A stretch of 64,000 bases of DNA from positions 2,976,001 to 3,040,000 of the forward strand of contig CM039005.1 in the NCBI GenBank assembly GCA_017499595.2, given 5' to 3'. This document shows positions 60,277 through 63,756 of this stretch, piece after piece. The first letter of the stretch is position 1, and the number at the start of each line of letters is the position of its first letter. The notes beneath the pieces are model-generated. The model saw only the letters and a program-made list of their open reading frames with translations, ran no database searches and had not been told where the DNA came from. This stretch comes from Psilocybe cubensis (lineage: Eukaryota). A program made the position numbers and the translations under genes.

Positions 60277-63200
60277 ATGCCTTTATTTCATTTGAAGAAC
60301 CTGATCCAAATCCACCAAGTATTAAGGTTCAGTCATAACTGTCAGTTCATGGTGACTCACTTCGTTAATTCGAAGCTCATGGCGCTTGTTCCGTCGTGTT
60401 CACTTCTTGGGTCTCAAAATAGAATACAAGAAAGCTATGCTGACATGACATATTGGGATCCAAATATATGCAGTTCACTTTACATCCATGACTCGAGGCT
60501 GTATGACCGTAGGACACGCAATGCCACGTTGCCGTTAGGTTAGTGCAACATTAAAACAATTCTCTCTTATAATAATCTTGTCTATGTGCGTCTCCCAAGT
60601 AAAACTACATCCATGACTACTGAAACTATCATCGTTCATCCTCACAATCCACCTGCTACTAGTGCTAGTCGCACCCTTTGTCGACTTCTGGTTCGCAATG
60701 AAATTGTTCGCGTTCAAAAGTGAGTTTGCATCTCCTTGAGTACTGCTGTGCGGCGTAGACTTATCTACCCTGGAAGACTTCTCGAGACATTCCCTGAGCT
60801 TATCAACATCCGACATCCCCTTGGGTGGGCTCCCATCCATACTGCTGTTCTGTGCTGCGATACTACGCTGCTTAAGTTCATTTTGAATCTACCAAGAGTG
60901 GATATCGCTGTACAGGACGAATCAAGCTTCAGCTCCAGCTCATCCGCCGCTTATCAACTATGCCGTACGCAAGAGTTGTGTCCCACAATTGGCGGGACCG
61001 AGTCTACCCAGGGTGCAACGGCCTTGCATTTCGCGTGCATGAGAGGCGATAAGGATGTCCTCAACTTAGTTCTCCAAAGGGGAGGTGCATCTGCTTATAA
61101 TGCTTTGGATCACTCCCAGCGGACACCATTGGACTATTTTGACTTAGATACAGTGGATCTAGAGGCATTGCTTGCGTATCAGTCAGCAGAAAAGCAGTGG
61201 AAAAAGGACTGGAGAACCCTCGTCGCAAAAGGTGTGTTCTGAGTCACACTCATTTATTGAAATCACTCACCTCGTGTTTCACATGTGCAGACGTATTTGT
61301 ATTCTGTAGTTCCATACGACTGGGTGATTACGACTACTGCAAAGAGTGAGTCGCAAATTATATATTCGGAACGATAAGCATACTGAGACGGTTCCGTAAC
61401 AGATTGATTGAATGCTATCCAGATCTAGCAATTAAGATGTATTCAGAAATAAAGGATAGTGTTTCTTCGAAGCTCAGAAGCATTTTCAAACCGTCATCCG
61501 TTGAGGTTTCTACCATCGTTCCCGATTATCCTCTGCATGGACCTGGATCTTCGGCTCTACATTACGCTTGCTTGGAAGCTAGAATGGACATTGCTGAGTT
61601 GTTATTACGCAATGGTGCGACATGGACAGAGAAGGATGATTACAACATTACTCCACAAATGTATGCGAACCTCCACGGGGAGATCATAGCTCAAAAGTTC
61701 AAATCATTGTGCGACGAAGAAGACAGACTACGGAAACAAAGGATAGAGGAGGAAAGCCGAAAAATGGAATTGGGCGAAAATATCAGGGAATCAGAGGTGC
61801 TTCAAGGCCAAAAAGCGGAAATGGATGGTCCAGCAACTCAGGAAGAGGACGCTCTCCAATGGGCAGTAGACTTCGCAGAGCAGTTGGCTTTGGAAGTGGG
61901 GAAAAGGAAGGCTGACGAGGTCGATGTGGATAAAATGGAGAAAGGAGAGCCGCGGATATCCAAAGCCGAAAAACGACAGATGAAGGCCTTAGAAAAACAG
62001 AAAGGTAAGCAGTTCATCGAACACAAAATGATTTATGATCAGTTCTTAACTAGTTAAATAGAAAAGGATAAGAAGATGGAAAAAAGGGAACAAAAAAAGA
62101 AAGAGGATGAAAGACGTCGAAGAAGTATGTCCCTTTTACCTTCCACAGGAATTGTCCAGATGTCTTAACATCTTCTCAACTCGCAGTCGAGATAGAGAGA
62201 ATAATCGGTGCTGACATCATTGGCCAAAAGGGACCCATCTCTTCGGTTGCGTCTGCTATCCGCCTTCGAGAAAATGGTTGGGTAGACCGAGATCGTCCTC
62301 TAGTAATGCTCTTTCTTGGAAGTTCTGGCATTGGGAAAACAGAAGTTGCAAAGAGAGTTGCAATGTATCTACATGGAATCAAGGCGGAAAAAGAAGATGA
62401 GAAAGTGGATGATGAACCAAGATCACCTATAAGCGAAGACGATGACGGTGACGAGCAACAAAAGGCATCGCTAACGGATATTGAAAAGTCTGGTACATTT
62501 GTTCGCATCGATATGTCCGAGTACCAACATGACTACACAGTGTCTAACTTAACGGGTACGTGGATATCTGCACTGGGCTATACCGTGACATTATCCTCAT
62601 TACACTCCCTCTCAGGTTCACCAAAAGGATATGTCGTACGTCTCATTTCGCGACTTTATTGAAAAATCCTTTTAATTTGTCACTTCAGGGATATGATGAG
62701 GGTGGTGTTCTAACCGGAAAATTGAAGGCCAACCCCCGAGCCATTGTTCTATTGGATGAGATCGAAAAGGCACACCCTAATGTCTTGACTGTATTCCTGC
62801 AACTGTTCGATGATGGTAGGATCACTGATCCCAAGGTACAGTTGCTCCTCTCTAATTCTGATTTAAATTCCTTATCATTTACATTCTTGCCCCATTATAT
62901 CAGCTCGGAACGATCTTCTGTCCCAATGCCGTCTTTATAATGACCTCTAATCTTGGATCTGAGGAGATCCGGCTTGCGGCGCCGAAGCTCAATTCTCTTA
63001 TTGCAAATACAATTGACGTGAACAAACATGAGAAGTATCACAAAGGAGTGACACAATTTACCAAGGAACTTTACCCTTTGTTGAAGAGGTCTCTCAAAAG
63101 AGATGAGTTCCTGGGACGCATCAACCAGACTGTCGTCTTTTTACCGTTTACTGACGTCGAGGTAAGATCAGAACTTGGTTTTTATGACAAGGCGCTGATG

Positions 63201-63756
63201 CAATTCATCAGCTTGGACACATTGCAAAGGTAGAGTTAAAGAAGTGGCAGAAGAGAGCTCTGGATCAACACGATATTCACGTCACCTGGTCACCGTCTGG
63301 TTTGTCCATGCTCTGTCCCTGCTATGTTTTTGTTTTTCTTATCAAACCTTTTTCTTTTTATACAGTCATTGAAAGACTTATTCAAGGATATGACGTGAAC
63401 TACGGGGCACGTTCGATCACGAATGAGATAAAGATATGCGCCATAAGGCTGGTTGCAGAGGCACAGATCAGGGGGGACATACCGAGAAGGTTATCTCAGC
63501 TTTTTCTATTTGCAGCATATCGTTAACGAAGAACCCATCAGCTCACACGTCCGTATGATTGTCAATGCCGCAGGTGATATGGAACTGGAGACCGTTGCAA
63601 AAGCAGGTAAGCAAACATGCCTCTACATAAAGATTTTAAAAATTGAAGATGAAAAATACGTGTTTTCCTCTTCTAGGCAAAAGGGAATCTAAGGACCTAC
63701 AGAAATTAGTTCAAACTGTATCGAATTCCCCTATAATAGATGTGCCATCAGCATAA
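60277..63756 (+). CDS. Ankyrin-repeat plus single ClpB-type AAA+ protein (Skd3/CLPB-like); 5' exons uncertain
   Basis: Ankyrin motifs [22 protein letters not shown] and GSSALHYAC, then a coiled coil. AAA+ motifs [70 protein letters not shown] and [11 protein letters not shown]. Confidence 0.88.

What the first reader, a model, noticed from the sequence alone, without database searches (positions are those of the whole stretch)
60277..63756. Fungal ankyrin-AAA+ protein with the architecture of animal Skd3/CLPB
Seen: ankyrin repeats fused to one ClpB NBD2-type AAA+ domain with intact Walker A and B, pore loop (GYV|G) and sensor-2 (GAR). Motifs such as RHPLGW, [24 protein letters not shown] and GYxVxYGARSI closely resemble human CLPB/Skd3 as I recall it. 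Known: Skd3 is a stand-alone mitochondrial disaggregase generally described from animals and their close relatives, while model yeasts use two-NBD Hsp104/Hsp78. Inference: an intron-containing fungal Skd3-like gene bears on the origin of the family. It has an extra ankyrin block, a long charged coiled coil and an acidic insert after Walker A, and no obvious mitochondrial presequence in my tentative 5' model.
Basis: partly seen in the sequence, partly recalled or inferred. Interest (0 to 1): 0.7.

Follow-up and report, generated by a model that had tools for sequence, protein, structure and literature searches.

The report
Mushroom Skd3 with doubled ankyrin domain
This mushroom gene is a true relative of the human mitochondrial protein-untangling enzyme Skd3/CLPB, which papers describe as new to animals and their closest kin; ordinary copies also occur in early-branching fungi, so the family looks older than stated, and the mushroom form has doubled its gripping domain and seems to have lost its mitochondrial address.

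Summary
Real gene: 13 exons, 60613-63756, 810 aa; all 12 introns are joined in one run's contigs. It matches a protein named Caseinolytic peptidase B-like, Psilocybe cubensis. Its ATPase domain sits in the Skd3/CLPB clade (100/100); grouping with the fungus's own Hsp104/Hsp78 is rejected (AU p=9e-5). Its first ankyrin block alone matches CLPB ANK crystal structures best (top 5 of 997). The 'extra ankyrin block' is a tandem duplicate of the whole Skd3 ANK module, intron included. Ordinary single-ANK Skd3 occurs in 9 early-diverging fungi, a nucleariid and 3 euglenozoans, against the published stem-holozoan origin. The start at 60277 is probably non-coding; from ATG 60613 there is no presequence. 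Best reading: a cytosolic, Hsp70-independent threading ring; activity, location and vertical versus horizontal origin are untested or unresolved. Databases already label such proteins automatically; I found no paper describing them. The scan noted a truncated Skd3-like ATPase in another fungal genome (e1-7826109, unchecked).

The parts
60613..63756 (+). Skd3/CLPB-family gene, 13 exons, 810 aa. Exons: 60613-60719, 60777-61231, 61291-61345, 61403-62004, 62062-62124, 62187-62555, 62616-62635, 62689-62835, 62904-63161, 63212-63299, 63366-63489, 63542-63606, 63677-63756
   Evidence: model; 12 of 12 joints in run X1; database protein P0001
60664..61230 (+). ANK module 1 (aa ~18-187): full Skd3-type module with the insertion between repeats 2 and 3 and the closing helix
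   Evidence: HMM of single Skd3 modules: 63.9 bits over positions 3-157 of 163; fold of exon 2 matches CLPB ANK, Z 16.4, rmsd 2.5, 137 aligned; coordinates
61231..61715 (+). ANK module 2 (aa ~188-310): tandem duplicate, middle part degenerate here, near complete in Rickenella, Coniferiporia, Phellopilus
   Evidence: 27.9 bits over positions 104-148 here; near full-length second hits in P0014, P0020, P0033, P0037; alignment; tree
60720..60776 (+). intron 1, phase 2; same alignment column and phase as intron 3 in module 2 and as an intron of metagenome locus L164
61346..61402 (+). intron 3, phase 2; the duplicate of intron 1
61680..62123 (+). long charged helical linker (aa 299-427); about 100 aa longer than in single-ANK Skd3, length variable among mushroom copies
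   Evidence: helices 299-346, 351-378, 393-444 of P0001 model; last ankyrin motif to Walker A 226 aa versus 117-134 in five early fungi
62125..62186 (+). intron 5, phase 1, at the linker/NBD border; same site as an intron of metagenome locus L134
62124..63593 (+). single ClpB-NBD2-type AAA+ domain (aa 428-780): Walker A K478, Walker B E581, sensor-1 N622, Arg finger R678, sensor-2 R737, pore loop Y556-V557
   Evidence: alignment to rat Skd3 with residues defined; coordinates
62378..62491 (+). acidic low-confidence insert after Walker A (aa 492-529); longer than in other Skd3, variable among mushroom copies
   Evidence: (pLDDT <50)
62525..62536 (+). secondary pore loop: H542-D543-Y544 in place of human E416-R417-H418
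62982..63038 (+). Skd3-specific NBD insertion, shortened (sensor-1 to Arg finger 56 aa; rat 65; Hsp104 and E. coli ClpB 37)
   Evidence: in-frame splice paths exist; codon score and profile test negative

Best explanation
The gene encodes a diverged Skd3/CLPB. Shown here: family membership, intact ATP-binding and hydrolysis residues, intact main pore loop, two tandem copies of the Skd3 ankyrin module made by one duplication in the ancestor of the mushroom subfamily, splicing. Inferred from human Skd3: six subunits form a ring, the ankyrin modules catch a client, and ATP hydrolysis drives the tyrosine pore loops to thread and unfold it without Hsp70, since the Hsp70-binding parts of Hsp104 are absent. 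Inferred from sequence: starting 22 residues before the first ankyrin helix, it has neither the presequence nor the hydrophobic inhibitory peptide, so it resembles the PARL-cleaved, activated form but is made directly in the cytosol, beside the fungus's own Hsp104 and Hsp78. The family was present before animals and fungi split; the mushroom subfamily is most simply a fast-evolving descendant that survived in few lineages.
For: Tree: 36-row Skd3-type clade 100/100, branch 0.85, holds all 9 agaricomycete rows; own Hsp104/Hsp78 outside; forcing them together costs 115 lnL, p=9e-5. NBD identity 44% to rat, 45% to Mycoemilia, 31% to own Hsp104 and Hsp78, 36% to E. coli ClpB. Foldseek: the first 18 listed rows are Skd3/CLPB. 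Module 1 folded from an alignment of agaricomycete-type rows only: ranks 1-6 and 1-5 of 997 are CLPB structures. Duplication: two HMM hits per protein, modules 1 and 2 each one clade (95, 99) and sisters (92), duplicated intron. Catalytic residues: 5 of 5 plus Y-V pore loop kept. Age: single-ANK Skd3 in Mycoemilia, Zancudomyces, Dispira, Tieghemiomyces, Entomophthora, Gonapodya, Thamnidium, Mucor flavus, Amoeboaphelidium, Parvularia, several on contigs of 0.3-3.3 Mb; 7 of the 8 used form one group (80/46), 6 fungi 86/90. Introns: 2 of 10 sites match exactly among 19 sites of 4 unnamed eukaryote loci (P=0.006 uniform, 0.049 if a third of sites are usable). Human mechanism: (passages).
Against: No activity or location was measured. 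The secondary pore loop has Asp where human R417 is; R417A diminishes disaggregation, although other family members vary there too. Skd3 needs ANK and NBD linked in cis, and here about 100 extra residues lie between them. The agaricomycete stem is very long (1.14-1.52) and does not group with early fungi in the free trees; a clade with early fungi (p=0.475) and a clade with animals (p=0.404) are both not rejected, so vertical descent is not shown. An in-frame upstream extension without acidic residues in its first 40 exists. Hymenochaetales copies carry an 87-108 aa leader with a hydrophobic helix, so the subfamily is not uniformly soluble. The bootstrap had not settled (0.956).
Confidence: 0.55

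Rival explanations
1. Same family, but a narrow-client remodelling ATPase rather than a general disaggregase: the doubled ankyrin domain recognises one complex (for example in non-self recognition or anti-amyloid control) and the motor takes it apart.
For: Patchy, fast-evolving and locally expanded: named copies in only 10 agaricomycete genera among the listed hits; 6 in Schizopora with one contig length, 3 each in Rickenella and Phellopilus. Long stem. Changed secondary pore loop. The window copy lies inside an array of small secreted cysteine-rich genes. The cytosol already has Hsp104.
Against: No partner gene is shared between the window locus and the C10 paralogue: the only similarity found is inside the gene. 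No NACHT/NB-ARC or effector domain passes its cut-off. No client is known.
Confidence: 0.2
2. It is a mitochondrial protein like animal Skd3, imported through an N-terminal extension from ATG 60277 or an internal signal.
For: In-frame splice paths exist (4 of 60 with fair donors); the extension has 3 basic and no acidic residues in its first 40; single-ANK relatives have arginine-rich, acid-poor leaders.
Against: Codon score equals the non-coding mean and is below every true-exon window; no likeness to Hymenochaetales leaders (score -0.3). The paralogue has stops in frame upstream of its ATG and four other agaric genera start at the same place; these starts are gene predictions.
Confidence: 0.15
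3. The mushroom subfamily was acquired by horizontal transfer from another eukaryote, and perhaps moved again between Hymenochaetales and agarics; early-fungal Skd3 is a separate, vertical line.
For: Seen in two orders only; not grouped with other fungi in free trees; agarics group with Rickenella in the concatenated tree (91) and in both module trees (98, 83); one shared intron is with an animal-like locus.
Against: Fungal monophyly is not rejected, nor is Hymenochaetales monophyly (p=0.346); the other shared intron is with a locus whose best hits are early fungi at 57-59%; hit lists were cut (120 of 501; 120 of 7998; 150 best), so absence elsewhere is not shown.
Confidence: 0.3
4. Independent fusion of ankyrin repeats to an Hsp104/Hsp78 NBD2 in fungi.
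For: Other ankyrin-plus-Clp fusions exist: a Sordariales orthogroup with N-terminal ankyrins, AAA and ClpB_D2-small is mentioned in PMC12258605 (passage).
Against: Rejected by the AU test; both domains independently match Skd3; both Skd3-specific insertions are present.
Confidence: 0.01

Closest known systems
Skd3 / human CLPB (ANKCLP), mitochondrial intermembrane-space disaggregase
   Same: One NBD2-type AAA+ domain in the same clade; all catalytic residues and GYVG loop; ANK module with the insertion between repeats 2 and 3; NBD insertion.
   Different: Two ANK modules; linker about 100 aa longer; acidic insert after Walker A; secondary pore loop HDY for ERH; proline before the GYVG loop replaced by lysine; NBD insertion 9 aa shorter than rat; no presequence or hydrophobic PARL peptide from the likely start; coexists with Hsp104 and Hsp78.
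Single-ANK Skd3 of early-diverging fungi, Parvularia and Euglenozoa (e.g. P0079, P0127, P0242, P0076, P0053)
   Same: Same family; 44-47% NBD identity to the window protein.
   Different: Ordinary architecture with a presequence-like leader and one ANK module. Database labels only; not found described in my paper searches.
Hsp104 / Hsp78 / bacterial ClpB
   Same: NBD2 fold and motifs; threading mechanism.
   Different: Two NBDs and a middle domain, Hsp70-dependent (passage); 31-36% identity; outside the clade; lack the NBD insertion (37-42 versus 53-78 aa from sensor-1 to Arg finger).
Sordariales orthogroup OG0007227 (ankyrin N-terminal to AAA, with ClpB_D2-small, Clr5, UBA_4)
   Same: Domain order as described in one sentence of PMC12258605.
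   Different: No sequence could be fetched; relation to Skd3 untested.

Membership tests
Skd3/CLPB (ANKCLP) | Single NBD2-type AAA+ domain in the Skd3 clade | tested here: met
   100/100; alternative rejected; one AAA_2 stretch
Skd3/CLPB (ANKCLP) | N-terminal ANK domain with the insertion between repeats 2 and 3 | tested here: met
   feature; met by module 1; present twice
Skd3/CLPB (ANKCLP) | Walker A K387, Walker B E455, sensor-1 N496, Arg finger R561, sensor-2 R620, pore loop Y430-V431 | tested here: met
   K478, E581, N622, R678, R737, Y556-V557 by alignment to rat Skd3
Skd3/CLPB (ANKCLP) | NBD insertion L507-I534 absent from other HCLR ATPases | tested here: met
   56 aa from sensor-1 to Arg finger versus 65 rat, 37 Hsp104 and ClpB; helical in the model; shortened
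Skd3/CLPB (ANKCLP) | Secondary pore loop E416-R417-H418 (functional feature of the human enzyme, variable across the family) | tested here: not met
   H542-D543-Y544; early fungi have S/T/H-K-H, Diplonema H-A-H
Skd3/CLPB (ANKCLP) | Mitochondrial presequence plus hydrophobic PARL-removed peptide | tested here: inconclusive
   absent from ATG 60613 (22 aa before ANK, no hydrophobic window); an upstream in-frame path exists but looks non-coding; no targeting predictor available
Skd3/CLPB (ANKCLP) | Hexamer/dodecamer assembly and stand-alone disaggregase activity | not testable with these tools
   needs purified protein
Hsp104/Hsp78/ClpB | Two NBDs with a middle domain; NBD2 grouping with Hsp104/Hsp78 | tested here: not met
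   one NBD; grouping rejected
Fungal NLR (STAND NTPase with C-terminal repeats) | NACHT or NB-ARC domain with C-terminal repeats | tested here: not met
   AAA_2, with repeats N-terminal; NACHT only E=0.13 on the Walker A exon, below cut-off

The most novel reading that the evidence does not exclude
Skd3 is not a holozoan invention but goes back at least to the animal-fungal ancestor and possibly to the ancestor shared with Euglenozoa. Some mushrooms then moved it out of the mitochondrion as a ready-activated, Hsp70-independent cytosolic disaggregase, whose second ankyrin module, copied as an intron-bounded block, supplies in cis the ankyrin-ankyrin contact that human Skd3 gets from dodecamer formation. 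(Pre-holozoan age alone: about 0.85; cytosolic active disaggregase: about 0.45; the cis-contact idea is untested, about 0.15.)
Probability: 0.3. Interest if true: 0.8.

Novelty: new variant of a known kind. Interest (0 to 1): 0.62.

Why it matters
Four papers state that Skd3/CLPB arose in stem holozoans or in animals (PMC4339202, PMC7343390, bioRxiv 10.1101/2022.02.17.480866, PMC13232346; passages); the 2015 tree held 10 ANKCLP sequences, 8 animals and 2 choanoflagellates (supplement). Fungal and protist members move the origin back, as happened for EMRE (PMC7423614), and show Skd3 living beside Hsp104 and Hsp78. They also weaken the idea that uniporter complexes created the need for Skd3, since Mucoromycotina are reported to lack MCU yet Thamnidium and Mucor flavus have Skd3. 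Mucor offers a microbial host for Skd3 genetics (my inference). The mushroom form is a natural experiment on open mechanistic questions: what the ANK domain and the dodecamer do, and whether a leaderless Skd3 can work in the cytosol, which bears on efforts to use disaggregases against amyloid.

Tried and rejected
1) First splice model had two introns off by one base and hit a stop; fixed. 2) ATG 60277 with the strong donor at 60539 is out of frame; weaker donors give in-frame paths. 3) Run X1 has no contig over 60277-60597 and its first gene contig begins at 60598, the acceptor AG of the candidate intron 60539-60599; with contigs only, this is no evidence on the 5' end. No run is on record as RNA. 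4) The RefSeq model P0001 differs from the RNA-joined form at the intron 5 acceptor and in the last exons; trees used my model, the fold used P0001. 5) Search for bacterial ankyrin-Skd3: 1 locus and 80 kept of 544 match the AAA part only; none of 2112 plasmid records covers 80% of the query. 6) The third protein search was crowded by chance candidates (29 hits of 8000) and added no agaricomycete. 7) A chlamydial-type source for the Skd3 NBD: Simkaniaceae L041 and tandem-NBD2 proteins are the nearest outgroups (SH 1.0 in FastTree; 98/93 for the wider group, 88/33 for L041 as sister), but all are long branches; kept as a lead only. 8) Transfer between Hymenochaetales and agarics: not supported by AU. 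9) No named ascomycete appeared among listed hits or the 20 representatives looked up (4 gave a species); lists were cut, so no absence is claimed. The Atlas lists fungal AAA_2 clusters that I could not fetch. 10) In the tree one row (P0387) was mis-cut; it was re-cut and 6 rows were dropped for run time and branch length before (P0300_u1, L083, Schizopora5, Belonocnema, P0283, P0271). 11) Near-miss introns (intron 2, one column from L139/L164; intron 7, one codon from L164, whose modelled donor is non-canonical) were not counted. Introns were modelled in 4 of 12 eukaryote-like loci. 12) No complex prediction was run: an AAA ring would pass by likeness to solved structures. 13) Scan look-up by sequence found nothing.
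Full report
1. The observation. The region holds one gene on the + strand. A model with 12 GT-AG introns of 50-70 nt from ATG 60613 to TAA 63754-63756 reads 810 residues without a stop. Contigs of run X1 (called RNA by guess, one study) skip 12 of 12 introns at these sites; the DNA run X2 skips none. The first AAA exon finds a 100% match, P0001, named 'Caseinolytic peptidase B protein-like protein [Psilocybe cubensis]', XP_047746580.1. 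That model and UniRef model P0121 start at 60613; P0001 differs from the joined form at the intron 5 acceptor and near the end.

2. Family. Against solved structures the first AAA exon scores 69-80 bits on CLPB chains and at most 43 on Hsp104 (48 hits). Over the NBD the protein is 44% identical to rat Skd3, 31% to the genome's own two ClpB-type proteins and 36% to E. coli ClpB. I call those two Hsp104 (L020) and Hsp78 (L024) from recalled motif likeness; no call named them. A careful IQ-TREE run (48 rows, 321 columns, bootstrap not fully settled) puts all 9 agaricomycete rows in a 36-row Skd3-type clade with 100/100 support; holding them with Hsp104 and Hsp78 is rejected (p=9e-5). The outgroup had only these two eukaryotic Hsp100s, 9 bacterial loci and one unnamed tandem-NBD2 protein, and no named choanoflagellate was in the tree. 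The AlphaFold model (mean pLDDT 81, pTM 0.51) finds Skd3/CLPB in its first 18 listed rows. Exon 2 alone, folded from agaricomycete-type rows only (pLDDT 88), finds the CLPB ANK structures at ranks 1-5 of 997 (Z 16.4-14.8, next 14.0). Both domains thus point independently to Skd3.

3. The doubled domain. A profile of the single ANK module, built from 19 non-agaricomycete Skd3 rows, hits the window protein twice (63.9 and 27.9 bits) and hits Rickenella, Coniferiporia and Phellopilus proteins twice at near full length, while single-ANK Skd3s are hit once. In a quick tree of 51 modules, first modules (SH 95) and second modules (99) are sister groups (92) and repeat the same branching. Introns 1 and 3 fall in the same column and phase of the two modules. 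Phase-1 introns lie at the module 1/2 border and at the linker/NBD border, which suggests duplication of an intron-bounded block (inference). The paralogue on contig C10 has introns at the matching places; its two copies lie in a duplicated block of at least 18 kb, over 99% identical, so the genome has two distinct genes of this kind.

4. Range and age. Double-ANK proteins are named from Psilocybe, Cyclocybe, Agrocybe, Flammula, Phlegmacium, Rickenella, Schizopora, Coniferiporia and Phellopilus (21 named rows among 120 listed of 501), with a related Sanghuangporus protein; orders were checked for Rickenella and Phlegmacium and recalled for the rest. Ordinary single-ANK Skd3 is named from 9 early-diverging fungi (phyla checked), the nucleariid Parvularia, Chromosphaera, and the euglenozoans Diplonema, Namystynia and Rhabdomonas; a Rhodelphis transcript may be contamination (untested). 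P0387 and P0241 were labelled Creolimax and Ichthyophonus from recalled gene-name prefixes. Six fungi group at 86/90 and with Parvularia at 80/46; Amoeboaphelidium is a long branch outside. Their leaders are mostly basic and acid-poor like rat (a crude count, not a predictor). The mushroom clade's own place is open: neither a clade with early fungi (p=0.475) nor with animals (p=0.404) is rejected. Two of 10 intron sites match exactly in unnamed eukaryote loci, one fungus-like and one animal-like by best hits, which favours descent through an intron-bearing eukaryotic gene but does not name the donor.

5. Mechanism. The residues that human work defines for nucleotide use and substrate grip are all kept: K478, E581, N622, R678, R737, Y556-V557. 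The NBD insertion is kept but shorter; in human Skd3 its deletion raises activity. The ANK insertion, linked to substrate handling and dodecamer contact, is kept in module 1. The leader that PARL removes to activate Skd3 has no counterpart from ATG 60613. I therefore infer a cytosolic, Hsp70-independent threading ring with a doubled capture arm on a long charged helix (0.55). Against it: the secondary pore loop has Asp at the R417 position, the ANK-NBD spacing is stretched, and nothing was assayed. A narrow-client remodeller (0.2) and a mitochondrial form (0.15) are the rivals for function; horizontal origin (0.3) is a separate question.

6. Literature. [quoted passage not shown] Searches for a description of fungal or protist Skd3: 10 papers hold both Skd3 and fungi; 2 opened, 8 seen as listings; 2 papers, both opened. 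None showed one. The library lacks most subscription papers, and public databases already label several of these proteins as CLPB homologues, so the fact is accessible but seems unremarked.

7. Verdict. A real, spliced Skd3/CLPB gene of a new structural variant. Interest 0.62: it corrects a repeated statement on the origin of a human disease gene and offers a natural variant for mechanistic tests, but function is inferred and automatic annotation had already named the homologues.

Noticed in passing
window 58796-59167 (+); L040 543-866, 3179-3529, 4481-4846 (-): The Skd3 gene sits inside an array of at least four small, signal-peptide-like, cysteine- and glycine-rich genes. The window copy is spliced in runs X1 and X5 and has no Pfam match.
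   Followed up: partly
window 45365-51029 (+): MFS transporter next to a molybdenum-cofactor oxidoreductase with cytochrome b5/FAD-type parts: a nitrate transporter plus nitrate reductase pair, like the known fungal nitrate assimilation cluster (name recalled).
   Followed up: partly
window 59547-59645 and 59985: Short multi-copy element upstream of the gene (summed contig depth about ten times the flanks in DNA run X2; two 21-nt related copies) and a 47-base insertion in run X2 at 59985.
   Followed up: no
G000:C10 ~776000-795500 and ~1237000-1256800 (L033-L038): A block of at least 18 kb occurs twice at 99.4-99.9% identity, with the Skd3 paralogue and tandem AAA genes; recent duplication or assembly duplicate. 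Transposon-like frames lie beside one copy.
   Followed up: partly
proteins P0299, P0334, P0340: Unnamed proteins with an N-terminal MIT domain fused to a single NBD2 that branches at the base of the Skd3-type clade in FastTree (Pfam MIT confirmed for P0299 and P0334): another single-ring Clp architecture.
   Followed up: partly
proteins P0262, P0265, P0279, P0300, P0324, P0336, P0344; locus L041: Unnamed proteins with signal-peptide-like starts and two or three tandem NBD2-type domains, which with a Simkaniaceae Clp are the nearest outgroups of Skd3 in the trees; long branches, so only a lead on the bacterial source of the Skd3 motor.
   Followed up: partly
Hymenochaetales proteins P0014, P0020, P0029, P0031, P0037 and others: Leaders of about 87-108 aa with one hydrophobic helix, and sensor-2 motif often GVR for GAR: possibly membrane-anchored forms.
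   Followed up: partly
RefSeq XP_047746580.1 (P0001): The public model has 9 extra residues at intron 5, a wrong frame after the sensor-2 motif and a shortened end compared with the RNA-joined form.
   Followed up: yes
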